In this document: positions 17,657 through 29,351 of the stretch, in pieces
How positions within the stretch are numbered: the stretch's first letter is position 1
Layout: each line of letters begins with the position of its first letter
Source: a virus
IMG/VR virus record: IMGVR_UViG_3300050343_000218
Length of the DNA: 64,000 nucleotides
Reading direction: 5' to 3' (one strand)
Position numbers and translations under genes: made by a program
The notes under the pieces: model-generated
Database searches by the model: none
Told to the model about the DNA's origin: nothing
What the model saw: only the letters and a program-made list of their open reading frames with translations

Positions 17657-20600
17657 TTATGCGCAAGTGGGGTTACAATCGCCTAGGTAAGAGAACAGAA
17701 CTGGCCACGGAGCAGGGATCTGGAAGTCCAATGCTCTAGGTGCAATTCCATCAGTTACCTTAATTTGTGCAACACCTTCCATACCGATGATCGGTTGTTC
17801 ACCGTGACCACGGTCGCGGAGGGGTTTAATGAAGTTACAGAAGTAATCATTAGATGGTGTAATGCAAGCACCGTTAGAGGTGTATGCAAAATCATAAGTG
17901 TGGTCCTGGCAAGGATCAGCAACTGCCACAAGGTTAATCAAGTCAACCAAATCGAATGGAGACTCAACCAGCTCCACCCACAATGTGTAGACCTTTTGAG
18001 TACCACGTGCAGGGAAGATAGCAGGTTGAATGTCATTCTTAACAGAGAAGTCAACAGGAAGGTTGACGTTAGTGTCACCACGGAAAGGACACTCGCGAAG
18101 TACTCCAGTTGCCGCGGCCAATTGACCACTATAAGTAGAGAAGTCGCCAGTATTAACAATCGTAGGAGCGTTAGCGTGGGCAGGATTATTTGTAGTGTAA
18201 ACAGTTCTAGTACCACTATCAACGTTTTCCATATAAGGGAACTCATTGATCAGACGCAATCTCCAGGTAAACTGACCAGCATCGATTGTGTAAGAGACCG
18301 TCACATCTTGTGACTGGTTGTTACTCACAGTCAGATTCTGTGCACCTTTGTAGTAATCTTGTACTTGCAAGGTGTTGATGTCAATGTAAGGCAGTGCACT
18401 CAAAGGTGCAGGACCCACGTCAATAACGAAAGAGCGAACTAAGACGTTACCAAAGTAATCGCCACAAGTCAGAGTAGTATCAACGAAGCCTTGATCGTGA
18501 CGCAGATAACCATTAGAAACGGTACCAGTCCAACCATTAGCATACTCATACCACCACATACCCATTTCAGGTGGGTTAGCAATAGCACTGATTTCGTTCG
18601 ACACAGAAGATAATGCATCGCCATTACCAACCACAACTTGATAAGCATACGGGTCATTTACACCACTTGGGATGCCCTTACAAGGAAGGTCAGTAACACG
18701 AAGCACAGTACCATCGTTTGCCAACGGAGGCTGTAGTTGTGAAGAAGATTGAACAGGAATTTCAATCTGAGGACCACCATAGTTCACACGAAGTGGGAAG
18801 TCTTCATCGAATGAAACGTAGTTCGCTTCGTAGATGCTAGCACCATCGAGAACACAAGAAGAATGATATGCAGTAGTATTGTTACCGTAATCTCTCCTGG
18901 ATCTATAATGTGGTGACTTGAGAGGAACATAAGTAGAACTGGTGTTAGCAACAGTGTCCCAGTTATAGGACTTAACGCCAGTAGAGGTATCATAACTATA
19001 AAGCTTTCTGTACCAGTTGAACTCGATGTTCTGGTCAGTACAAACAAGATTCACTGGGTAACGACCATCCTTAGGGGATTTGTTACTAGACTGATACGGT
19101 AACGTGTTAGGGAAGTGTGTTAAAGCACCATACTCAGTCACAACAGAGTAAGAACTCGAAGTGATTGATGTAGCGCCAGATTCCATTGTCAGCAGAGGTT
19201 GTGCAGGAACTGCAGGGATATTAGTAAGACCAAGCTGTAACGTATTGGAAAGCAATGCATTGAATACGCTGGTGAAATCAAGGTGCTGTGTAGCAAATGT
19301 AGTACCACCTGCCTGACCGAAGTAGAAGACAGAACCAGCTTGAGCTTCATCAACGATAAGATCGACCCAAGCACCTGGTGTGCCAGGAGTACCGTAACGT
19401 CTAACGTTAGTGCCAATGTATGCACTACCAGTAGCAGATTCTCTCAGTTCTAGGTTCTTACCAACCCAGGAAGCATCGCTAATATCAAAGCGATACGTAG
19501 CACCTTTGGGTACTTCAAACACAGTAGAACCAGACTCGTTAATGACAGTAGCATAGTCATTACCAGTAGCAACTAGATTGAATGTCAAGCGATAACGCAT
19601 CTTGAGGCGGAAGAAATCTTGATCATAATTCCACCATTTGTTAACAATGAGGAAAGAGATTGCAATTTCGTGTCCTGTGACATCTTCAAAAGTCTCATTG
19701 TAAGAGTAGAATTGATCTCTCGCTGCCAAATTATTCTCGAACCAATCGCCTTCTTCAATCTGACAAGATTGACCAGCAGCAACAGGACCAGTAGAATACT
19801 CGTTAATGTTATGCCATATGAAACCTGCACCTTTATCTCCCCAAATTTGCCACTGAGGAAGATAATCAAATTGAGTATTTTCGTAACCAGTTTGATATGC
19901 AAGAACACTGAATGACTTATAGCTCAGAGGACGTGAATACCACTTATTCTCTTCCCAGATAAGATCATCATTAGGTTGTCCGTCTTTCTTAGTGACAGTC
20001 AAGTAATCAATTGTTCTCGAAGCACCACCAGTCTTCAGCGCAACATTCTGTACTGTAACAGTAGTGTTAGTAAGCTGAATAGTATACTCTTGAGTCTGAC
20101 CAGAAATATTTTCTTCTACAGTCAGTGTCAAGTCAAGGGTTGTGTTGTTGATCAACGTACCACTCAAGACACCAGTTTCGGTATCGAATGCAAGACCAGT
20201 ACCAACAATAGAATCACCAGTCAGTGAATAATCTCTATCGAGAATTGTCTCTGCAGCATATGTTCTTAAGAAAGAAACACCAAGCTGAAGGTTGATAACA
20301 TCACCGATGTTAAATGTACCCAAAGCACCTGCAGGTGTGTACCACGTGGTCAACAGGTTGATATAAGGAGAGAACAGACCGCGAACATAACCGCCATCAA
20401 CACCCTTATCTGTAGGAAGGTAAACGATCTCATCACCTTCACCATTTCCAGCATCTTCTTGAGCTTCAGTCTGGAAATATAGTTTGTTGCCAACAGGATT
20501 TTCATCCATCCAGCGTTGGATACCATCAGCACGTTGATGAGTACCGTTCAAATTAGCAATCTTGATCAGATTGCCACCAGTTTCAGACTGAACACCAGTA

Positions 20601-23600
20601 AACTGAGCAGCATCAGGTTCAATTGTAATTCTGCTGTTAGCAGTATCAACATCAGTAATGGTTTGCCAGTATCTCTGAAGCACGTTGAATTGCACACCAC
20701 CAATGTCATAGACATAGGAGGATCCTTCTACAGCATTACCACCAGGATAGACAGGATCTGAGTAGAAGTAGTCACCCATTATGTAAGGATATGCAGGAGC
20801 TCCATTCTGATCTTCAGTGATGAAGTAAGCATAGGTTCCATTCGGATAGTCAGGTGTCACACAGTAGCGACCATTTCTGCTATCAACGTCACCGATGATA
20901 ATACGCTCACCCATATTAGAGTGATTGTAGCAGAAGTAGTACAACACGTGGGGAGCATTTGATGCAGGAGTATACTCAATGCTTCTCAAAGTAGCAGTGT
21001 CAAATCCTGCGACATATTCAGAATATGTTACTACAACATCTTCCAACTTGTACACAACACCGATTGTATAAACAGCGTTAACATCACCAGGAGACGATCC
21101 TGCAACGTGCCAACCTTGTGCTTGAGCATCACCATTAGTTGATAGCAGCATCATATGGCTGGTATTTGAACTATCAGAAAGGTTAAAGGTATACTTTCTA
21201 CCTTTCTTAAAGTTAAATGATGGTTTCTCAGCAGAACCACTTAATGTTCCACCAGAGATATAATAGCGACCACCACTACCACTAACAGTAGCAGCTGCAG
21301 CTTGAACATTGTAAGTAATGTCAGTAATATTATCTTCTTCGCTACCGCCTTGGAATTCAAAGTCTTCGTTAAAAGATCCAATAGGATAGGTTGTTTTGTC
21401 TGGACGTGATCCAAACATATCAGGAACTCTATTCTCTAGTTTCGGCAGATATGCAGGCTTCATACGAATAACCGCACTGCTATTGTCATCACGATCAGAA
21501 TAACCGTAAGGACCATAGATTGGATAACCGTCAAATGTCATACCAAGAATCTTGGAGTGACCGTTAGTATGACGCTTGTAATCACCCTGAACATTGCTGT
21601 TCACGACAGATTGATTACCCATACGTGGATGATTCACACAGACATAATACAGCAATGCAGGAGAGTTTTGAGGAACAACGATTGTAACCGTACGAGTAGT
21701 AGCACTATTGAAGCTATTGCTGAAAGTAACAGCATCAACTGCAGCACCATCCAATCTGTAAGTAACACCATCGCTATAACGAACACCACCATTATGAATA
21801 CCATCATCAGTGGTGGAGAAGTACATCGGGTGATTATCATTAGAAGAATCACTTAGATCAAAGATGTAAGTGTTACCTCTAGTGAAGTCCAGTTGTGGAG
21901 CTTCAACGTTAACGGTGTACGTATCACCACGGAGTACATAGTTATTAAGACTACCTTGATTGTAGTAAGGAGCTGATGCTGACTTAGTATCAGTGGTAAT
22001 AATATAGTTAACAGTACGATATCCTAGATCGTAGTAAGATTGAGACAGATAGTTAGAACCAGAAACAGCAACGGTGCCGTATGCACTCAACAGTTTGCTT
22101 GAGTTATAACCATAAACGTTAGCAGCACTTGGATAACCACCATAAGAGTCTTCACCCACGAGGTTACCATTAGTAACTGTATTGTATGTCCAACCAGGAG
22201 TAGGACCATTCTCGAAGGAATAGTGGTACAGGAATGTACCAGTAGTAGTAATACCGAAAGCATTTACACTGCGTAAAGGCTTCATCTCTACCAAGCTGGC
22301 AGATGCATAGTTAGTACCACCTCTCCAGTTAAAGTTCTGGTTAAAGGATTGCTTATCAATACTATTTGGGTTACCTGCAGTAATAGCAATCTGTGCAACA
22401 GATGTTGCTTGCACACCACCACTAACGTTTGGAGGATTAATAGTAACAGTAGGAGAAGTTGTGTATCCAGAACCCTGTTCAATCAAGTTAAGACCAGAAA
22501 CATAACCATCTAGCACTGAGATATTAGGAGATGCTACTGTACCAACACCGCCGCCACCACTAAATGTGATGTTAGCGTAAGTATAACCAACACCTTGATC
22601 AGTTACATTAATAGTATCAACTACACCAATTTGTGTACCAATCGTACACACAGAAGATGCAGGTTGCTCAAAGATTGGGTTTTGCGGTGCAGTGTCAGCT
22701 TCAGTGACTGGTTCGCCGTAGTACCTATCTCCTAGAATATATGGGAATGCAGGATTAGCAGAAGCATCGAATGTAGTGAAGTATGCATATGTGCCGCCAG
22801 GGAATTCAGGAGTGACACAGTAGCGACCATTGCAACGATCTAAGTTGCCACCACCAAGGTACTGATAGTCTTCCACAAATGAACCCATCGGATATGCCGT
22901 AGTAGACGGAGCATAACCAACTGGTTCAGTCAGAGTAATCGTACCTGTCATTGCCTGATGATTTTCGCAGACGTAATAATAAGTTCCAGGGGCTGTAGTT
23001 GTAGTACTCCACAACAACGTAGCATTGTAGCTACCATTGTTAACAACACCAGCAACAACTTGTGCAGGGTTATAAGGTGCAGGAACTTTCTGAATCCAGA
23101 AAGGATGAGTAATTGTAGTTCCACCGCCACCACCAGCAGACTGGATAGTGATAGTACCGACCATACCGCCGTGATACTCACACTGATAATAGTAAGTACC
23201 AGCAGAACCAATACCTGGAGTCCAAGCGACAGTACCAGACTGAGTACCTTGATTACTAACACCAGAGATTTGATTGCCAGTACCAGTACCAGCTGCAGTT
23301 TTTAGATAGAATGGGTGACCAGATGCAGACACCGTGAAGTTAATAGTATCACCTTCATAGAATGTCAGACTAGGATCAGATCCACTAACGTTGCCAGTTC
23401 TATCAGAACCAGAGACAGTGTAATCGCTAAAACCACTTGCAGTAACAACTAAGTTATAAGTTGCAGGTGTACTACCACCGCCACCACCAGTAGTATAAGA
23501 AGCATTGACGTTGAACACAAGGTTGTCGCCAATGTTAGCAGCGATTGCAATATCACTACCAATTGCTTCTCCAGTAAAATCAAAGTCTAAGCTATCATCA

Positions 23601-26600
23601 GCAGTAACACCCCAGGTGTACGTAGATCCACTATATTGTGTCCCATCACGCTCTCCCTTAACACCCCAAGAACTTTGCATTCTTGAAAGTGTGGTGGGTG
23701 AACCAGGACTTGAATAACCAATAGGACCGTAGATTGGATAACCATCGTATGCATAACCAATCACAGGAGAGTGATGAGTTGCATTAATAATATCTGCAGT
23801 TGTATGCGAAGGAAGAGCTGCAGTGTTTGTAGTTGTAGTCACAGATGCAGCATTGCCGTATCCAGAATACAATGAGCAGTAGTAGTAGAGATTAGGGGTG
23901 TCAGGTTGAACTTGAAGATATAAACCTGTACCAGATACACCGTCACCAGGTGTACCTTGATAACGATATCCAATCTCGTATGCAACACCGCCTTGAGTAT
24001 GCACACCATCCTGAGTTTCAGAGATTCTGAAAGGATAACCAGCGTTACTTACATCACTCTGATCAAAGTAATAAGTATTACCTTCAGTGAGAATGATATT
24101 AGGTGTCAGACCATTGTTAAGGTAGTACTTGTTACCACCACCAGGATCATTAATGGTTACAGTATAGGTTGTAGAAGAACCTTTCCAAGTATTAACTAAG
24201 AAATTACCTGTAATGTAGTGATACATACCAGAACCATCTACAACACCGCTACCATTATCAGCGCCAAATGCAGTAGAGTTGAAAATTTTGTTGAAGGTAT
24301 ATCCATCAGGACAACCAGTACCATCAGGCAAATCAACATTCAAACCGTGCGAAAGATGACGCAGTTGTACACCATTCAGCGCCATACCAATAGAAGGTTG
24401 AGCTAAAGTAGATGTAGGAGATTCATCGGAAATATTTCTACCACCACGATAAACCCAGGTATGGTTGTAAGACTGACCTGTAATAGTATTGGAGTTATTG
24501 CTATTTGGGAAAGCTCCATACAATGCAGGTTGAGGCAGGTTATCTGCAATAACCGTCAGCAATCTTGTAGTCTGATTCAGTGACGAAGAGGTAGTAGAAC
24601 CACCGCCAGACACGAAAGAACTATCAGGAGCGTGGATAGTGTTACCTTGATTAGCTGCAGCAGAGATTGCAATGCCAACAGTAGGTGCCTCAGAATATCC
24701 TGATCCAGGATTAGAAATATTAACCGCACTAACGATACCATCAGTAATGACAGCTACAGCAGTAGCACCAGATCCACCACCACCAGTAAATGTAACTGCA
24801 GGAAGGTTTAGAGGATTATAACCAGAACCACCATTAGTAACCGTAACAGAATCAATACCACCACCAGTTAGAGAGATAACAGCTGTTGCAGTTGCGCCAG
24901 TACCATCACCAGCGATATCAACAGTAGGAGCTTCGGTATATCCAGCACCACTTTGATCAACGTTGATGCTTGTAATATTACCACCAGTCAGTGTGATGTC
25001 TGCGGTTGCAGTTGCACCAGTACCGCCACCACCAGTAAATGCAACAGATGGGACAATAGTATAACCAGAACCTTGATTCTGGATAGACAAGGTAGAAACA
25101 TAACCAGTAGTACCACCAGAAGGGAATACACCAGCAAGACCAGGAGCAGGATCGTTATCAGTGACAAGATTCAACAATCCGCCAGCTTGATAATATGCTG
25201 CTGTCGGTGATCCATCACTACTAACCCAAACGTCAGTGATGATATCCACTGAAGGAACTGCCTCAGGGATACGGAACTGCATCTTATCACCAACAGTAGC
25301 ATCGAATCTAGAGAATTCACTACCCAATGTGATAGACATTTCATTGGTGCCAGCACCAACAGCAATGTAAGTATTGATGCCATCGAGAGTAATCTCATCG
25401 ATGTCATTAGTAGGATAAACGTTTACACTACCACCACCATATTCTTCACCAACAGCGGATTGCGTTCTCTCGTAATCCCAATCAATTTCTCTACGAATCC
25501 ACTCTTTAGCAAGTTTAGGAACAGATTTGCCTTCATATGTTGCTCTGTTCTCATATCCTTTCTTGCCCAAATACTGCGCGATAACGCCAGCAGTCAGAGG
25601 ACCAGAGAATGAAGTACCACGAATATAAGCATAATAAATGGAACCAACAGAGCTGTAAGAACTGTTGGTGTTCCAATAATACTGAGGGCAGTAAATTGAT
25701 TCTCCAGGACCACTGGTGGTAACACCAGTACCATAGTTTGAGAATCCTGAGAATGTATTATTATATGCCGTAGCACCGACAGAAATCTTGTCGCTAATAC
25801 CCTCCATATTATATCTGTAGTCCTGAGGACCAGCAGTACGAGGACCAGGATTAAACTTAGCTTGGAATCCACCGTACTTAAAGTTATAACCGTAACCGTT
25901 ACCAGCAGAGCGAACGAATACGATTCCGTTTTCTACACAAAGATTTTCATAGTCGTCCATAGCAGTGTCTGCTTCATATGAACCACTATCGAATCCAGGT
26001 TCGTTCTGAGGAACGTAACGATAGACTTCAGACGGAATAGTACCAACACCCAGAGAAGCATTGATAATAGCTGGTCTAGTACTTCCTTTATAGTTAGGAT
26101 GAGCAGGATCGTTATGGTTGATGATTGCTAGTAGAGCAAACACATATGTGGACAATAGACCACTACCAGCGCTGTTCTGACATTTCAGTGCATAGAATCT
26201 AGTCTTACGTGCAACACCGTGCTCCAGACCACCAATTAGAATGGCACATTGACTACCGTGACCATTGTCATCTTCGTTAGAGTTTGCCTCACCATTTACA
26301 GTGTATCCTGAATTGTATCCAGGAACTTCATAGACACGATATTCAGCCTGATTAATAGCAGTATTGTAGTCATCAGCATAATCAGGGTGGAATAGTTCAG
26401 GGTGCAAGTTAGCACCAGTAACGTTAGTAGGACGTGATGCACCACGAATACCAGTATCAATAACATAACAGTCAACACCCTCACCGTGCTCGGTGTAAGA
26501 GTACAGACCATAATTCAGTGAATTTTGTTGCTGAGTGATACGTGCAAGATACCACTTACTAAAGATTGCGACTTTACAATGATCGGTAGCATTTAAGAAT

Positions 26601-27346
26601 CCACCGCCACGCAAACCAACTCTTGAGGTTTCGTTAGCATAAAGATAAAGCTGCTGCGGAGTTGTCTGCGAAACAGTTAGTGTTACTTCAGCACCAGTGG
26701 TACCAGGAGTAGCAGTTCTGGAGACACCAACCACATAGTTAGTACCGCCATTATGAGTACCATCAGGAGTCTCAGAGAAAGCTAAAGTATAACCAAAGTT
26801 AGAGTTATCAGAAACATCAATAACTAATTCGTGTCCAGGAAAAACATATGTCAGGTCAGGAGCTTGTGATCCGTTGATGTATAACTTAGGACCACTAGTA
26901 GTATTAACAACAGTAGCAGCGATTGAATACTGAGTACCAGAACCAACGTTATAAGGAATAACGTTGCCGTAATCGCTAGGTTTAATTTGACGTGCTAGCG
27001 CATCAATGTCTTCGTTGTCAGTTGATAAAGACTCTGCAATTGCTCTTCTATCAAAAGAACCACCTTGCACATCAACTTCTTCTAATCCATATGTCTGTGA
27101 ATCATCAGTTTCTACCCCCGTTAGGTAAATTTCTCTATCCCAAACAGCTCCAATAACCTCAGGGAATTCATCTCCCTTTAATATTTGTACAAAGTTATCG
27201 TCTTTTACGTCGAAATCTAAGAATAAAGTCTTAAGACGACTCAGATCTTCGGTGTTCTGAAGTGATGTAAAACGCTGTTTCGCTCTTTCGATGACAGCGC
27301 TGGCTTGATTTTCCTTAGAAATTCTCGCAATAATTCTATTGCTCAT
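17657..27346 (-). CDS. giant virion-type protein: I9-like prodomain, S8A subtilisin domain, two YHYH-like domains, several cupredoxin-like domains, Gly-rich repeats
   Basis: D297 (VIDTGI), H363 (NGHGSQ), N483 (SAGNG), S579 (GTSFSG); HSPVIGYAYDGYPIYGP-type motifs x2; CxxHxxM x4. Confidence 0.8.
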   Translation of the reverse strand: MSNRIIARISKENQASAVIERAKQRFTSLQNTEDLSRLKTLFLDFDVKDDNFVQILKGDEFPEVIGAVWDREIYLTGVETDDSQTYGLEEVDVQGGSFDRRAIAESLSTDNEDIDALARQIKPSDYGNVIPYNVGSGTQYSIAATVVNTTSGPKLYINGSQAPDLTYVFPGHELVIDVSDNSNFGYTLAFSETPDGTHNGGTNYVVGVSRTATPGTTGAEVTLTVSQTTPQQLYLYANETSRVGLRGGGFLNATDHCKVAIFSKWYLARITQQQNSLNYGLYSYTEHGEGVDCYVIDTGIRGASRPTNVTGANLHPELFHPDYADDYNTAINQAEYRVYEVPGYNSGYTVNGEANSNEDDNGHGSQCAILIGGLEHGVARKTRFYALKCQNSAGSGLLSTYVFALLAIINHNDPAHPNYKGSTRPAIINASLGVGTIPSEVYRYVPQNEPGFDSGSYEADTAMDDYENLCVENGIVFVRSAGNGYGYNFKYGGFQAKFNPGPRTAGPQDYRYNMEGISDKISVGATAYNNTFSGFSNYGTGVTTSGPGESIYCPQYYWNTNSSYSSVGSIYYAYIRGTSFSGPLTAGVIAQYLGKKGYENRATYEGKSVPKLAKEWIRREIDWDYERTQSAVGEEYGGGSVNVYPTNDIDEITLDGINTYIAVGAGTNEMSITLGSEFSRFDATVGDKMQFRIPEAVPSVDIITDVWVSSDGSPTAAYYQAGGLLNLVTDNDPAPGLAGVFPSGGTTGYVSTLSIQNQGSGYTIVPSVAFTGGGGTGATATADITLTGGNITSINVDQSGAGYTEAPTVDIAGDGTGATATAVISLTGGGIDSVTVTNGGSGYNPLNLPAVTFTGGGGSGATAVAVITDGIVSAVNISNPGSGYSEAPTVGIAISAAANQGNTIHAPDSSFVSGGGSTTSSSLNQTTRLLTVIADNLPQPALYGAFPNSNNSNTITGQSYNHTWVYRGGRNISDESPTSTLAQPSIGMALNGVQLRHLSHGLNVDLPDGTGCPDGYTFNKIFNSTAFGADNGSGVVDGSGMYHYITGNFLVNTWKGSSTTYTVTINDPGGGNKYYLNNGLTPNIILTEGNTYYFDQSDVSNAGYPFRISETQDGVHTQGGVAYEIGYRYQGTPGDGVSGTGLYLQVQPDTPNLYYYCSLYSGYGNAASVTTTTNTAALPSHTTADIINATHHSPVIGYAYDGYPIYGPIGYSSPGSPTTLSRMQSSWGVKGERDGTQYSGSTYTWGVTADDSLDFDFTGEAIGSDIAIAANIGDNLVFNVNASYTTGGGGGSTPATYNLVVTASGFSDYTVSGSDRTGNVSGSDPSLTFYEGDTINFTVSASGHPFYLKTAAGTGTGNQISGVSNQGTQSGTVAWTPGIGSAGTYYYQCEYHGGMVGTITIQSAGGGGGTTITHPFWIQKVPAPYNPAQVVAGVVNNGSYNATLLWSTTTTAPGTYYYVCENHQAMTGTITLTEPVGYAPSTTAYPMGSFVEDYQYLGGGNLDRCNGRYCVTPEFPGGTYAYFTTFDASANPAFPYILGDRYYGEPVTEADTAPQNPIFEQPASSVCTIGTQIGVVDTINVTDQGVGYTYANITFSGGGGVGTVASPNISVLDGYVSGLNLIEQGSGYTTSPTVTINPPNVSGGVQATSVAQIAITAGNPNSIDKQSFNQNFNWRGGTNYASASLVEMKPLRSVNAFGITTTGTFLYHYSFENGPTPGWTYNTVTNGNLVGEDSYGGYPSAANVYGYNSSKLLSAYGTVAVSGSNYLSQSYYDLGYRTVNYIITTDTKSASAPYYNQGSLNNYVLRGDTYTVNVEAPQLDFTRGNTYIFDLSDSSNDNHPMYFSTTDDGIHNGGVRYSDGVTYRLDGAAVDAVTFSNSFNSATTRTVTIVVPQNSPALLYYVCVNHPRMGNQSVVNSNVQGDYKRHTNGHSKILGMTFDGYPIYGPYGYSDRDDNSSAVIRMKPAYLPKLENRVPDMFGSRPDKTTYPIGSFNEDFEFQGGSEEDNITDITYNVQAAAATVSGSGGRYYISGGTLSGSAEKPSFNFKKGRKYTFNLSDSSNTSHMMLLSTNGDAQAQGWHVAGSSPGDVNAVYTIGVVYKLEDVVVTYSEYVAGFDTATLRSIEYTPASNAPHVLYYFCYNHSNMGERIIIGDVDSRNGRYCVTPDYPNGTYAYFITEDQNGAPAYPYIMGDYFYSDPVYPGGNAVEGSSYVYDIGGVQFNVLQRYWQTITDVDTANSRITIEPDAAQFTGVQSETGGNLIKIANLNGTHQRADGIQRWMDENPVGNKLYFQTEAQEDAGNGEGDEIVYLPTDKGVDGGYVRGLFSPYINLLTTWYTPAGALGTFNIGDVINLQLGVSFLRTYAAETILDRDYSLTGDSIVGTGLAFDTETGVLSGTLINNTTLDLTLTVEENISGQTQEYTIQLTNTTVTVQNVALKTGGASRTIDYLTVTKKDGQPNDDLIWEENKWYSRPLSYKSFSVLAYQTGYENTQFDYLPQWQIWGDKGAGFIWHNINEYSTGPVAAGQSCQIEEGDWFENNLAARDQFYSYNETFEDVTGHEIAISFLIVNKWWNYDQDFFRLKMRYRLTFNLVATGNDYATVINESGSTVFEVPKGATYRFDISDASWVGKNLELRESATGSAYIGTNVRRYGTPGTPGAWVDLIVDEAQAGSVFYFGQAGGTTFATQHLDFTSVFNALLSNTLQLGLTNIPAVPAQPLLTMESGATSITSSSYSVVTEYGALTHFPNTLPYQSSNKSPKDGRYPVNLVCTDQNIEFNWYRKLYSYDTSTGVKSYNWDTVANTSSTYVPLKSPHYRSRRDYGNNTTAYHSSCVLDGASIYEANYVSFDEDFPLRVNYGGPQIEIPVQSSSQLQPPLANDGTVLRVTDLPCKGIPSGVNDPYAYQVVVGNGDALSSVSNEISAIANPPEMGMWWYEYANGWTGTVSNGYLRHDQGFVDTTLTCGDYFGNVLVRSFVIDVGPAPLSALPYIDINTLQVQDYYKGAQNLTVSNNQSQDVTVSYTIDAGQFTWRLRLINEFPYMENVDSGTRTVYTTNNPAHANAPTIVNTGDFSTYSGQLAAATGVLRECPFRGDTNVNLPVDFSVKNDIQPAIFPARGTQKVYTLWVELVESPFDLVDLINLVAVADPCQDHTYDFAYTSNGACITPSNDYFCNFIKPLRDRGHGEQPIIGMEGVAQIKVTDGIAPRALDFQIPAPWPVLFSYLGDCNPTCA

Positions 27347-27380: not shown

Positions 27381-27387
27381 TATTTAT
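27381..27387 (-). promoter_or_regulatory. T4-type late promoter
   Basis: ATAAATA upstream of the 3229-aa gene, overlapping the previous stop. Confidence 0.65.
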
Positions 27388-28049
27388 GATCTCAGATCGC
27401 CTTTAGTTCGTAGTAAATGCATTTTCTGTTCGTCTATGATTCTAACCATTTCCCATTCAGGAGAATCTGGACTGTATTCTGTATTAGTAATACATTCTTG
27501 CATTCTTGCAAATGCCAGACGATCCATAGGATCTTTGAGTCTAGACTGAGCCCAAAGCACTGCTACTTTCCTTTCACCAGCAGTTACAGGTTTAACTCTA
27601 TGTGGTATTCCAGTAGGGTAACTAAATGCCCACCCTGCTGGTAACTTAACACTAATCAGTTCAGTGCCAAGTTTAATCTCCAATTCCCCACCTTCATAGT
27701 CTTCATTTAAAAAAACTGTGGTACTAACATCAGATCGTAAATCTTGATTAGAACCCATATGTGCGTGATCGGTATGCCAATCATAATGGCATCCTACACC
27801 ATACTTACAAAAATGTGGTAACGTATAAGCACAGCTCAGCATTGAGTCGCGTACAACATCACAATTATCCATAGAACCTTCCAATATACTCCAGCACGCA
27901 TATGCAGACTGTTTGTCTATTTGGAAATTATTCTTTACTCGTTTATCGCTACTGCCAGATTCTTTACCATCCTCCCAGGTACCAGCATCACAAAGATTTA
28001 ATATATGCCCGACTTGGACGGAATTCAAAAGTTCATAACGATAAAACAT
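27384..28049 (-). CDS. PKHD-type 2OG-Fe(II) hydroxylase (YbiX/PiuC-like)
   Basis: WHTD, STTVFL, YEGGEL, HRVKPVTAGER. Confidence 0.88.
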   Translation of the reverse strand: MFYRYELLNSVQVGHILNLCDAGTWEDGKESGSSDKRVKNNFQIDKQSAYACWSILEGSMDNCDVVRDSMLSCAYTLPHFCKYGVGCHYDWHTDHAHMGSNQDLRSDVSTTVFLNEDYEGGELEIKLGTELISVKLPAGWAFSYPTGIPHRVKPVTAGERKVAVLWAQSRLKDPMDRLAFARMQECITNTEYSPDSPEWEMVRIIDEQKMHLLRTKGDLRS

Positions 28050-28051
28050 AA

Positions 28052-28702
28052 TTAAGAGGGTTTAGTAGGCCAACCAGTAAAGTTTTCAGGATCGTAGGGA
28101 TCATCTGTTTGAGCAGCAGGAAGATCTCTAAGTAATGTACGATATGCTGCCCATTCAGCTTTTTTCTCATCAGTAAGAGGAGAATCAGCCATCTGGGTCC
28201 AATCACAATCAAGTAGACGAGTGTGTCTCGCGTGCTTCAATGTTTTCATATTCTCAGGAACACCTTCGGTAAGGTATCTGTGAGCATCAAATTGTTCTTC
28301 TACAACTGCCGCCTCAGCTGCAATATGCTCTGCCGTAAGTTCTTCTAGTCTAGTCCTAAGAGCATTGTAAATCTTATCTGCTTCTGCCGTACTAGGACCA
28401 CCATTCAGAGGCGTTTTATTATAGTTACTAGGAATCTCTCCAGAACACTCTGTGTTCTCTGTGATATAAAAAGATGGTGAGATAATTCCGTCCCCATCAT
28501 CTGAAGATAACCAATAGTACATCATCTCAAATTGATCAACACCAGGAACATCCCAAATGCCAACCAAAAGAGGTGCCACTAATGTATTATATTCTTCGCC
28601 AATATCAAAGAAGAGAGTAGTTCCAAAAGGAGCGTGGTACGTACCAATCACCTTCTGAATATTGTTAATAACTAATGCTGCTTTTCCAAAATCTCTTGCC
28701 AT
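28052..28702 (-). CDS. tail fibre assembly chaperone
   Basis: C-terminal RLLDCDWTQMADSPLTDEKKAEWAAYRTLLRDLP..WPTKP is the Tfa/tail-APC signature. Confidence 0.85.
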   Translation of the reverse strand: MARDFGKAALVINNIQKVIGTYHAPFGTTLFFDIGEEYNTLVAPLLVGIWDVPGVDQFEMMYYWLSSDDGDGIISPSFYITENTECSGEIPSNYNKTPLNGGPSTAEADKIYNALRTRLEELTAEHIAAEAAVVEEQFDAHRYLTEGVPENMKTLKHARHTRLLDCDWTQMADSPLTDEKKAEWAAYRTLLRDLPAAQTDDPYDPENFTGWPTKPS

Positions 28703-28703
28703 T

Positions 28704-29351
28704 TTATGCGTTGTGATAGTACCAACCAGTCAAGATATATTTATTGCCTTTTAATACTGTATTTCCTCTGTGGGGATGCGTAAAACCAGCTGGCCAAACT
28801 ACAACAGTTCCTGCAGGAGGTTTAACCCGACGTTTTTGCATCAAAAACTCAGTCTCACCAGCTTCATAATCATCATTCAAATATATCGCCCACACTAAAC
28901 ACCGAGAAGAATGGTTAAGACCCATAGCCTCATAATGCCAGACGTGATATCCACCACCTTCCTCTGTTTTTTGCAACTTGATGCAACTACTAATCAGTGA
29001 TTCGCCTGCAAGCTGTGGAAACTCACCAATGTAATGTTCAACAGTTGATGCCAAATATTGATTAGTGCATTGCTGCAACTCAAGATTTTGATGAGTAATC
29101 AGGGTTTGTTTATCATATCTACCCTGCTTCCCTTGAGGAAACTGAAATCTACCGTCAGCAATATCACCGTTATCCATTGAGGATCCGATAACACTAGCGT
29201 GAGATTCTAGATCATCAAACCAATCAATATATTTCTGACACTCGGATTTGGGCATAAAACTATCCCAAACACCAATAAAATCATCAAAGTTTGATTTAGT
29301 CAAGTTCTCATCGAGCATCAGCTCTAGAGGACGAATAGGTGTAATGTCCAT
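28704..29351 (-). CDS. 2OG-Fe(II) oxygenase, P4H-like
   Basis: WHYE, IYLND, AGETEF, HPHRG, KYILTGW. Confidence 0.88.
   Translation of the reverse strand: MDITPIRPLELMLDENLTKSNFDDFIGVWDSFMPKSECQKYIDWFDDLESHASVIGSSMDNGDIADGRFQFPQGKQGRYDKQTLITHQNLELQQCTNQYLASTVEHYIGEFPQLAGESLISSCIKLQKTEEGGGYHVWHYEAMGLNHSSRCLVWAIYLNDDYEAGETEFLMQKRRVKPPAGTVVVWPAGFTHPHRGNTVLKGNKYILTGWYYHNA

What the first reader, a model, noticed from the sequence alone, without database searches (positions are those of the whole stretch)
20880..24700. Four intact type-1 (blue) copper ligand sets nested inside two YHYH domains
Seen: CxxHxxM at C1389/H1392/M1395, C1460/H1463/M1466, C1903/H1906/M1909 and C2139/H2142/M2145, each with an upstream His (GHPF, THPF, NHPM, SHMM). 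At least three sister domains have lost ligands (for example YYYCSLYSGY). These domains are inserted between the successive motifs of two YHYH-type domains (YHY / H..GY..DGYPIYGP / NGRYCVTP..P.GTYAYF). Knowledge: His plus CxxHxxM is the short-loop cupredoxin site. Inference: a multi-copper or redox-active virion appendage, possibly a copper analogue of the proposed iron-carrying tail fibres, a metal sponge, or an electron-transfer chain.
Basis: partly seen in the sequence, partly recalled or inferred. Interest (0 to 1): 0.8.

Follow-up and report, generated by a model that had tools for sequence, protein, structure and literature searches.

The report
Blue-copper domains in cyanophage tail protein
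A 3,229-residue tail/baseplate-type protein of an uncultured marine cyanobacterial virus carries seven plastocyanin-like domains; four keep all four copper-binding residues, and the same module sits on baseplate proteins of hundreds of cultured cyanophages, so these virus particles probably carry bound copper, though no one has tested this and its role is unknown.

Summary
The gene at 17657-27346 (-) has exactly four C-x2-H-x2-M motifs (0.003 expected by chance). Each lies about 45-75 residues after a His, in a domain that models as a cupredoxin and aligns ligand for ligand with plastocyanin.

The domains are inserted into two YHYH scaffolds. One copper domain sits inside another, which sits inside a YHYH domain.

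In about 20 metagenomic orthologues, sites 1 and 4 never change despite synonymous codon turnover. Sites 2 and 3 are either intact, carry Met-to-Gln, or have lost several ligands at once.

The module is a large family, with 8,218 clusters in a 1.84-billion-protein library. It occurs in gp9 and the gp10-position baseplate protein of cultured Synechococcus and Prochlorococcus myoviruses, and in a giant-virus contig.

I found no multicopper-oxidase features and no partner redox site, so an electron-transfer chain is unsupported.

My best reading is metal-locked (probably copper) tip modules on a virion appendage. Copper binding, ligand geometry and virion location were not tested.

This scan has found the same module before on other DNA, including an orthologue of this protein. 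I found no paper describing it.

The parts
17657..27346 (-). Giant late structural gene, 3229 aa (P0001). It holds an N-terminal subtilase, Gly-rich SGY repeats, two YHYH units with cupredoxin inserts, and an unassigned C-terminal 1000 aa.
   Evidence: The PHROG hits are to baseplate wedge subunit, gp9 connector, virion structural protein and protease families.
22712..24574 (-). YHYH unit 1 (aa 925-1545). Motifs are YHYI (1042-1045), HHSP..DGYPIYGP (1190-1208) and NGRYCVTP..GTYAYF (1506-1523).
   Evidence: Pfam PF14240; alignment with insert-free YHYH domains; AF core pLDDT 70-90.
23849..24139 (-). Ligand-less cupredoxin-like insert at site A of unit 1 (aa 1070-1166). The ligand positions read Y/C/Y/Y.
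   Evidence: Family HMM 87 bits; pattern YCYY is conserved in orthologues; the AF model of it is poor.
23498..23620 (-). N-terminal fragment of copper domain 2 (aa 1243-1283), cut off from the rest by the insertion of domain 1.
   Evidence: It matches HMM positions 12-41 only. Splicing it in silico to aa 1410-1480 gives one contiguous match of 86.3 bits.
23138..23470 (-). Copper domain 1 (aa 1293-1403). Ligands are H1344, C1389, H1392 and M1395. It is flanked by invariant Gly5 linkers.
   Evidence: PF00127 above cut-off; phmmer alignment to plastocyanin with all four ligands matched; AF pLDDT 73-83 and rusticyanin Z 8.6, rmsd 2.3 A, 96 aa; ligands invariant in 26/26 sequences.
22925..23116 (-). 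C-terminal two thirds of copper domain 2 (aa 1411-1474). Ligands are H1414, C1460, H1463 and M1466.
   Evidence: HMM positions 40-105. It is intact here and in 14 aligned sequences; 7 orthologues have Cys to Ser and His to Ala together. The AF model is poor.
20747..22384 (-). YHYH unit 2 (aa 1655-2200). The YHYH position reads YGYN (1745-1748). Other motifs are HTNGHSK..DGYPIYGP (1926-1946) and NGRYCVTP..GTYAYF (2158-2175).
   Evidence: Pfam PF14240; alignment. The AF core is poorly modelled.
21599..22012 (-). Copper domain 3 (aa 1779-1916), at insert site A of unit 2. Ligands are H1839, C1903, H1906 and M1909.
   Evidence: AF pLDDT 80-94; cupredoxin matches at Z 7-8. It is lost as a set in two orthologue clades, and one orthologue has Met to Gln.
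20891..21325 (-). Copper domain 4 (aa 2008-2152), at insert site B of unit 2. Ligands are H2064, C2139, H2142 and M2145.
   Evidence: AF pLDDT about 75-94; rusticyanin Z 7.7. His, Cys and His are kept in all 21 aligned sequences; the 20 true orthologues keep Met and L024 has Gln. The same type sits in gp10-position proteins of 284 cultured cyanophage records.
26621..26899 (-). N-terminal ligand-less cupredoxin-like domain (aa 150-242).
   Evidence: Family HMM 53.6 bits; pattern Y/A/T/-.
19313..19549 (-). C-terminal weak ligand-less copy (aa 2600-2678).
   Evidence: Family HMM 14.9 bits, E 0.002. This is the weakest of the seven copies.
25457..26557 (-). Subtilase (S8) region, aa about 264-630.
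   Evidence: PHROG 3677 'protease' 2e-28. Pfam Peptidase_S8 scores 20.2 bits, just under its 21.8 cut-off.

Best explanation
Gene and protein. This is a late structural gene of an uncultured T4-like marine cyanomyovirus. The protein is probably a baseplate-attached appendage. It holds seven cupredoxin-fold modules of one viral family. Two YHYH domains serve as scaffolds, each with one module inserted at the same two loops. In unit 1 the second insert is itself split by a further complete module hung on two Gly5 hinges.

The sites. Four modules keep the full type-1 ('blue') copper ligand set: His, then Cys-x2-His-x2-Met, the shortest loop, as in amicyanin. I propose that these four sites bind a metal ion, most likely copper, in the mature particle.

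Proposed geometry (from what I know of cupredoxin structures, not measured here). Both chain ends of a cupredoxin lie at the pole opposite the metal. An inserted module would therefore point its metal site and ligand loop away from the scaffold. The metal would then lock that distal loop into a rigid, stable tip. A tip of this kind suits an extracellular appendage that cannot use disulfides, and it may serve in host-surface contact.

It is not a multicopper oxidase, a nitrite-reductase-like enzyme or a wired electron-transfer chain.

Shown: the motifs, the fold of three of the four intact modules, the nesting by profile evidence, ligand conservation and joint loss, and the family's distribution.

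Inferred: copper as the metal, virion location, outward orientation, and a stabilising or binding role.
For: - Motifs: four observed against 0.003 expected.
- Sequence: PF00127 above its cut-off. All four residues of domain 1 align with the plastocyanin ligand columns.
- Fold: AF2 models of domains 1, 3 and 4 reach pLDDT 73-94. Nearly all of the top 50 structural matches are cupredoxins: rusticyanin Z 8.6 (rmsd 2.3 A, 96 aa, 28% id), plastocyanin Z 6.5, amicyanin Z 6.7; Foldseek gives laccases and nitrite reductase at E 1e-5 to 1e-6.
- Nesting: the two flanking fragments match complementary halves of the family HMM (12-41 and 40-105). Joined, they give one match of 86.3 bits, against 67.1 for the C-terminal piece alone. 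The layout and the Gly5 linkers are conserved in all orthologues.
- Selection: sites 1 and 4 never change in 20-23 orthologues of 62-82% identity, while their codons alternate CAC/CAT and TGT/TGC.
- Loss pattern: sites 2 and 3 are intact, Met to Gln, or lost at two or more ligands at once.
- Family-wide: 228 of 277 full-length copies keep four ligands and 28 keep one. Cys and the loop His are both kept in 235, both lost in 35 and discordant in 7. The axial residue is Met 205, Gln 23, Phe 2, which are axial residues I know from natural type-1 sites.
- Conservation rank: the ligand columns are among the nine most conserved in the family.
- Context: tail-fibre block; PHROG hits to gp10-type and gp9-type baseplate families; the same intact module in gp9 and the gp10-position protein of S-ShM2, Syn19, P-RSM4 and ACG-2014d, and in the gp7-like giants of P-HM1 and MED4-213.
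Against: - No metal was measured, and no model coordinates were available, so ligand geometry is unchecked.
- AF2 did not give a confident model of domain 2 or of the ligand-less insert (pLDDT under 50). The nesting therefore rests on sequence profiles only.
- As far as I know, all type-1 copper proteins are metallated outside the cytoplasm. Virion proteins fold in the cytoplasm, where free copper is essentially absent. Loading would need a chaperone route or uptake after lysis, and zinc could occupy the site instead.
- Ligand-less sister domains show that the fold does not need the metal. A purely stabilising role does not by itself explain why particular positions never lose it.
- Virion presence of this protein has no direct evidence, and no cultured phage has an orthologue.
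- The family counts come from a profile seeded with ligand-bearing copies and from related sequences. The percentages and the Fisher P value are therefore inflated.
Confidence: 0.5

Rival explanations
1. Redox-active copper. The type-1 centres cycle between Cu(I) and Cu(II) at the host surface. They could sense the redox or light state of the cell to trigger infection, or feed electrons to an oxidative activity of the appendage.
For: Every type-1 site I know of serves electron transfer. The axial ligand toggles Met/Gln/Phe, which tunes potential in known proteins. The sites are retained at fixed positions even though the fold survives without them. The module is confined to phages of phototrophs among cultured phages: 284 records, all Synechococcus or Prochlorococcus phages.
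Against: No partner redox centre was found. There is no H-C-H or His-Cys bridge motif (the Cys neighbours are Q/E, V/E, V/V and F/Y). The YHYH His pair is lost in unit 2 and in gp10-type proteins. No haem or flavin family hits appeared in the gene. The distance between sites could not be measured.
Confidence: 0.2
2. Same sites, different metal. The His2-Cys-Met pocket is filled by zinc or another ion acquired in the cytoplasm and acts only as a structural clamp, so the particle is not 'blue'.
For: Virion proteins fold in the cytoplasm, where copper is tightly buffered. From what I know, heterologously made cupredoxins often carry Zn. Phage fibres are known to use structural Fe or Zn, but this was not tested here.
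Against: As far as I know, the exact ligand set and the short loop in a cupredoxin fold occur in nature only with copper. Met/Gln axial variation is typical of copper sites.
Confidence: 0.12
3. No metal in vivo. The modules are Ig-like spacers or adhesion domains, and the ligand residues persist for packing reasons or because of recent descent from a plastocyanin-like ancestor.
For: Three of seven copies in this protein and about a quarter of family copies have no site yet persist. Sites 2 and 3 have been lost in some orthologues without loss of the domain.
Against: Synonymous turnover without any amino-acid change at eight ligand codons. Ligands are kept at 23-36% domain identity across thousands of clusters. 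Joint rather than piecemeal loss. A lone exposed Cys is otherwise rare in this protein, at 0.84% Cys.
Confidence: 0.13
4. Copper carriage. The virion uses the sites to scavenge, buffer or deliver copper. This would be a copper counterpart of the proposed iron-carrying fibres, or a sponge protecting the particle or host.
For: Only the presence of several high-affinity-type sites per chain and many chains per particle. Hosts are copper-sensitive and copper-requiring phototrophs (my own knowledge).
Against: There would be a few tens of atoms per particle at most. No link to any host copper-uptake receptor was found. Nothing in the gene neighbourhood concerns copper handling.
Confidence: 0.05

Closest known systems
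Plastocyanin (PF00127; e.g. Prochlorothrix 1b3i, Chlamydomonas 7zqe chain M)
   Same: It is the best solved-structure match by sequence (E 0.006). It aligns end to end with domain 1, with His, Cys, His and Met in the ligand columns, and shares the C-terminal Y-x-C..H..GM-G-T-I-T pattern. The structural match is Z 6.5 at 27% identity.
   Different: The loop here is two residues shorter (C-x2-H-x2-M against C-x2-H-x4-M). Pro rather than Asn follows the first His. The domains here sit inside a 3229-aa virion-type protein rather than in a soluble lumenal carrier. Sequence E-values are weak.
Amicyanin (1aac)
   Same: It has an identical ligand spacing, C-x2-H-x2-M, which is the shortest natural type-1 loop I know of. 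The structural match is Z 6.7, and domain 2 aligns to it at E 0.04-0.2.
   Different: There is no significant sequence relationship and no methylamine dehydrogenase partner. The context is viral and structural.
Rusticyanin (1cur)
   Same: It is the top structural match to domains 1 and 4 (Z 8.6 and 7.7).
   Different: It has a longer ligand loop and an N-terminal extension. The Z values are only middling for this tool, so the match shows the fold and not kinship.
YHYH domain, PF14240 (predicted tail-associated metal-dependent hydrolase; Iyer et al. 2021, PMC7824862)
   Same: Both scaffold units match the family (E 1.7e-40). The GHS..DGYPIYGP and NGRYCVTP..GTYAYF motifs are invariant. The family is known to be fused to phage tail and baseplate proteins.
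   Different: The histidines that give the family its name are reduced to one (unit 1) or none (unit 2 and gp10-type). Each unit is interrupted by cupredoxin inserts at two loops. The paper does not mention cupredoxin inserts in the passage I read.
Metal-bearing T4 fibres (His-x-His iron or zinc sites of gp37 and gp12) and the 'Ferrojan horse' idea
   Same: Both concern metal ions built into phage appendages.
   Different: Those sites are inter-chain octahedral His clusters in trimeric fibres. Here the sites are intradomain His2-Cys-Met sites of the blue-copper type. This comparison comes from my own knowledge and was not tested here.

Membership tests
Cupredoxin fold / type-1 blue copper proteins | Greek-key beta-sandwich cupredoxin fold | tested here: met
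   AF2 domains 1, 3 and 4 reach pLDDT 73-94. Nearly all top VIA and Foldseek matches are cupredoxins. Domain 2 was not modelled confidently.
Cupredoxin fold / type-1 blue copper proteins | Ligand set of an upstream His plus Cys-Xn-His-Xm-Met in the C-terminal loop, at homologous positions | tested here: met
   Present in four domains. Domain 1 ligands align with the plastocyanin ligand columns. All four domains align with each other at these columns.
Cupredoxin fold / type-1 blue copper proteins | Pfam PF00127 above its gathering score | tested here: met
   30.3 bits against 21.2 for the piece with domains 1 and 2. Domains 3 and 4 gave no PF00127 hit.
Cupredoxin fold / type-1 blue copper proteins | The four ligands converge on one point with trigonal N2S plus axial S geometry | not testable with these tools
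   The structure tool returns no coordinates.
Cupredoxin fold / type-1 blue copper proteins | Binds copper, with a roughly 600 nm charge-transfer band and small A-parallel in EPR | not testable with these tools
   This needs an experiment.
Multicopper oxidase / copper nitrite reductase | His residues flanking the type-1 Cys (H-C-H, or His-Cys) that bridge to a type-2/3 site, plus HxH motifs in partner domains | tested here: not met
   The Cys neighbours are Q-C-E, V-C-E, V-C-V and F-C-Y. The structural resemblance to laccases is only two cupredoxin domains with rmsd above 20 A overall.
YHYH domain PF14240 | Profile match and the C-terminal conserved motifs | tested here: met
   E 1.7e-40. GHS..DG.PIYGP and NGR.C.TP..P.GTYAYF are invariant in 30 sequences.
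YHYH domain PF14240 | The name-giving Y-H-Y-H histidine pair, part of the metal triad predicted in PMC7824862 | tested here: not met
   Unit 1 reads YHYI, unit 2 reads YGYN and gp10-type proteins read YFYT at the aligned position.
T4 gp9 / gp10 baseplate proteins | Full-length homology to gp9 or gp10, or the gene position between gp9 and gp8 | tested here: not met
   Only domain-level PHROG matches, to 677 and 708. The gene lies in the fibre block rather than between gp9 and gp8.

The most novel reading that the evidence does not exclude
The particles of the ocean's dominant cyanobacterial viruses, and of some giant algal viruses, carry working blue-copper redox centres on their baseplates and fibres. 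These centres take part in infection. They might read the redox or light state of the host surface to license adsorption or tail firing, or support oxidative chemistry on the cell envelope.
Probability: 0.15. Interest if true: 0.9.

Novelty: new variant of a known kind. Interest (0 to 1): 0.66.

Why it matters
Every blue copper protein I know of is a soluble or membrane-tethered electron carrier, or an enzyme domain, of cells. A conserved, complete type-1 site on virion proteins of T4-like cyanophages would be a new setting for this classic metal centre. These phages are among the most abundant viruses in the sea.

It would give marine virus particles a trace-metal content that nobody has counted. 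It would also pose a clear question about what copper does during infection of copper-sensitive phototrophs.

The test is cheap. Cultured phages (Syn19, S-ShM2, P-RSM4, P-HM1) carry the same module in gp9 and in the gp10-position protein. A 100-residue domain either turns blue with copper or it does not.

The cupredoxin-in-cupredoxin-in-YHYH arrangement is also an unusually deep example of domain insertion.

Tried and rejected
- Near-identity DNA search in cultured phages found nothing. No cultured phage has an orthologue: the best match is 32% identity over 68% of the region, and the C-terminal 1029 aa match only short pieces.
- A PDB sequence search found no solved YHYH relative. The fold searches were filled by cupredoxin matches, so the YHYH fold was not assessed.
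- AF2 with 30-row alignments modelled the YHYH core of unit 2, domain 2 and the ligand-less insert poorly.
- Model coordinates are not exposed, so Cu-ligand distances and inter-site distances could not be measured.
- The window's whole genome is not held, so its own gp9, gp10 and petE could not be examined.
Occurrence in cells was therefore not tested.
- I considered and rejected a multicopper oxidase or nitrite-reductase-like enzyme, because there is no bridging His.
- I considered a type-1 site feeding a YHYH metal centre, but the YHYH His pair is degenerate exactly where the inserts occur.
- I considered a chance motif (0.003 expected).
- Six literature searches found no description of the module: YHYH+phage; cupredoxin with cyanophage, baseplate or tail fiber; blue copper+virion+bacteriophage; plastocyanin-like+cyanophage.


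Full report
**Observation**

The finding lies in one ORF, 17657-27346 on the minus strand, encoding 3229 aa.

- The pattern C-x2-H-x2-M occurs at C1389, C1460, C1903 and C2139.
- It occurs nowhere else in the protein or in any other ORF of 100 aa or more in the window.
- Shuffling the protein 20,000 times gave a mean of 0.003 such motifs.
- The upstream histidines are H1344, H1414, H1839 and H2064.
- Pfam reports YHYH (PF14240, E 1.7e-40, five stretches).
- On the piece holding the first two sites, Pfam reports Copper-bind (PF00127) at 30.3 bits, above its 21.2 cut-off.

**What the domains are**

A profile built here from the window and its relatives finds seven copies of one domain family in the protein: aa 150-242, 1070-1166, 1306-1401, 1411-1472, 1800-1912, 2026-2151 and, weakly, 2600-2678.

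- Against the PDB by sequence, the best matches of domain 1 are plastocyanins (E 0.006). The alignment runs end to end and places all four residues in the plastocyanin ligand columns. Domain 2 aligns best to amicyanin, which has the same short loop.
- AlphaFold2 on 30-row alignments gave confident models of domain 1 (pLDDT 73-83), domain 3 (80-94) and domain 4 (about 75-94).
- Nearly all of the top 50 matches among about 48,000 PDB representatives are cupredoxins. Examples are rusticyanin Z 8.6 (rmsd 2.3 A, 96 aa, 28% identity), ascorbate oxidase, small laccase, nitrite reductase, plastocyanin Z 6.5 and amicyanin Z 6.7.
- Foldseek gives laccases, factor V/VIII and nitrite reductase at E 1e-5 to 1e-6.
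- These Z values are middling for the tool. The uniformity of the list, together with the sequence evidence, settles the fold.
- No coordinates are returned, so the geometry of the four residues could not be measured.

**Architecture**

Insert-free YHYH domains from other viral contigs are about 270 aa long. Aligning them with the two units here (aa 925-1545 and 1655-2200) shows inserts at the same two loops in each unit.

- Site A follows the YHYH position.
- Site B lies between DGYPIYGP and NGRYCVTP.
- Unit 2 holds domain 3 at site A and domain 4 at site B.
- Unit 1 holds the ligand-less copy at site A and a compound insert at site B.

In that compound insert, aa 1243-1283 match only positions 12-41 of the family profile, and aa 1411-1472 match only positions 40-105. 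A complete domain 1 sits between them, flanked by Gly5 runs. Joining the two fragments in silico gives one contiguous match of 86.3 bits, against 67.1 for the C-terminal piece alone.

Domain 1 is therefore inserted into domain 2, a few residues before its first His ligand, and domain 2 is inserted into YHYH. All orthologues keep this layout and the Gly5 linkers. AlphaFold did not model domain 2 confidently, so the nesting rests on profile evidence.

- The YHY at 1707 is not the family's motif.
- At the homologous position, unit 2 reads YGYN, unit 1 reads YHYI and gp10-type proteins read YFYT.
- The only invariant His of these scaffolds is the one in GHS.
- Iyer et al. (PMC7824862) predicted a three-His-plus-Asp metal site and a hydrolase role for YHYH. 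That site looks degenerate exactly where the cupredoxin inserts occur.

**Selection on the ligands**

IMG/VR holds about 20 orthologues at 62-82% identity.

- Site 1 is unchanged in 26 of 26 aligned sequences.
- At site 4, His, Cys and the loop His are unchanged in all 21 aligned sequences. The 20 true orthologues also keep Met, and the more distant L024 has Gln.
- The codons at these positions alternate between CAC/CAT and TGT/TGC.
- Only 42-49% of columns in these domains are invariant.
- Site 2 has lost Cys (to Ser) and His (to Ala) together in one clade.
- Site 3 has been lost in two clades, with three or four ligands changed each time.
- The only single change is Met to Gln, which I know as an alternative axial ligand in type-1 sites.

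**The wider family**

A profile of 13 diverse ligand-bearing copies (23-36% identity to the first sequence; the only invariant columns are a core Phe, the Cys and the loop His) was searched against 1.84 billion cluster representatives.

- It found 8,218 proteins at E 0.001 or better and 2,680 at 1e-10 or better.
- The best 150 proteins hold 317 copies.
- 228 of 277 full-length copies keep four ligands, 28 keep one and only 18 keep two or three.
- Cys and the loop His are both present in 235, both absent in 35 and discordant in 7.
- The axial residue is Met 205, Gln 23, Phe 2.
- The ligand columns rank among the nine most conserved.
- These numbers are inflated by the ligand-bearing seed and by relatedness, but the bimodal pattern is what a working metal site predicts.

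**Distribution and context**

- The window is a T4-like cyanomyovirus. It has a gp5-like hub, gp53, collar fibres and fibre genes around the gene, and its neighbours match cyanophages.
- The gene follows two 2OG-Fe(II) oxygenases that bracket a tail-assembly-chaperone gene. The same order is seen in an NCBI assembly that holds an orthologue.
- PHROG matches of the protein are to 'baseplate wedge subunit' (708, 514 bits), 'baseplate wedge tail fiber protein connector' (677, matching aa 1247-1402), virion structural protein families and a protease family.
- Domain 4 alone finds 284 records among 50,697 cultured phage genomes. All are Synechococcus or Prochlorococcus phages.
- In S-ShM2, Syn19, P-RSM4 and ACG-2014d, the C-terminal domain of gp9 and the protein encoded between gp9 and gp8 each carry an intact His/Cys/His/Met copy.
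- In P-HM1 and MED4-213, an intact copy sits in the giant gp7-like protein.
- BFVD structure matches include P-SSM2 fibre-like proteins, an S-TIM5 'virion structural protein' and 'beta-sandwich proteins' of metagenomic giant viruses.
- One top hit's cluster mate lies on a 202-kb contig with an NCLDV major capsid gene and carries four intact copies.
- IMG's pipeline has named some members 'plastocyanin', including a 2999-aa orthologue.
- I found no paper describing the module in any virion protein.

**Mechanism**

The evidence supports four real type-1-type metal sites under selection on a protein that is very probably part of the particle.

It does not support a catalytic or wired redox device:

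- No His flanks the Cys, as it does in multicopper oxidases and nitrite reductase.
- The gene matches no other cofactor family.
- The scaffold's own histidines are degenerate.

From what I know of cupredoxin structures, both termini lie opposite the metal. An inserted module should therefore present its metal site and ligand loop outward. My best reading, at about 0.5, is that the metal rigidifies and stabilises the distal tip of these modules on an extracellular appendage that cannot rely on disulfides, and that the tip may be a contact surface.

A redox or sensing role (about 0.2) stays open. The fold survives without the site, yet particular positions never lose it, and the axial ligand varies as it does in potential-tuned proteins.

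The main biochemical objection to copper is that virion proteins fold in the cytoplasm. Zinc occupancy or loading after lysis are both possible.

**Relation to earlier notes of this scan**

The same module has been reported before on other DNA, including a 3,228-aa orthologue of this protein and subtilase-cupredoxin fusions in other cyanophages. My tests were run independently and agree.

New here:

- the nested insertion;
- the joint-loss pattern in orthologues;
- the degenerate YHYH histidines;
- the gp9 and gp10-position survey in named cultured phages;
- the giant-virus occurrence.

Noticed in passing
L113:10001-14620 (ENA contig of 202 kb): A 1539-aa protein with about nine copies of the same domain, four of them intact His/Cys/His/Met. 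It lies on a contig that also encodes an NCLDV major capsid protein and a B-family DNA polymerase. The module therefore also occurs in giant viruses of eukaryotes.
   Followed up: partly
L001:7042-8241; L116:491-1435; L119:1-742; L120:1-775: The gp9 'tail fibre connector' of cultured cyanomyoviruses (ACG-2014d, S-ShM2, Syn19, P-RSM4) ends in an intact His/Cys/His/Met copy of the domain.
   Followed up: partly
window 25457-26557 (-): The giant protein begins with a subtilase-like region. PHROG 'protease' scores 2e-28 and Pfam S8 falls just under its cut-off. A ligand-less cupredoxin-like domain precedes it at aa 150-242. Other notes of this scan report subtilase-cupredoxin fusions in other cyanophages.
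   Followed up: partly
window 27384-29351 (-); L115:960-2963: Two 2OG-Fe(II) oxygenase genes bracket a middle gene directly upstream of the giant gene. In the L115 orthologue locus the same order is kept and the middle gene is a Phage_tail_APC chaperone.
   Followed up: no
window 23117-23137 and 23471-23497 (-), aa 1284-1292 and 1404-1410: The Gly5 runs on both sides of the nested domain 1 are nearly invariant in all orthologues. This suggests a hinge that matters.
   Followed up: no
L012 (site 3) and L024 (site 4): The axial Met is replaced by Gln with the other three ligands kept. Family-wide there are 23 Gln and 2 Phe among 233 copies that keep His/Cys/His.
   Followed up: yes
window aa about 745-895 and 1575-1650 of P0001 (about 24660-25110 and 22395-22620, -): Gly-rich repeats of the type G-SGYT..P.V.F.GGGG.GA.A precede each YHYH unit. 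They also open the gp10-position proteins, and they match PHROGs annotated as virion structural or head-closure proteins.
   Followed up: no
P0164 and P0015: IMG's automatic annotation names a 2999-aa orthologue and a 358-aa three-copy protein 'plastocyanin'. Pfam PF25489 (At5g54830-like domain) weakly matches several family members.
   Followed up: no
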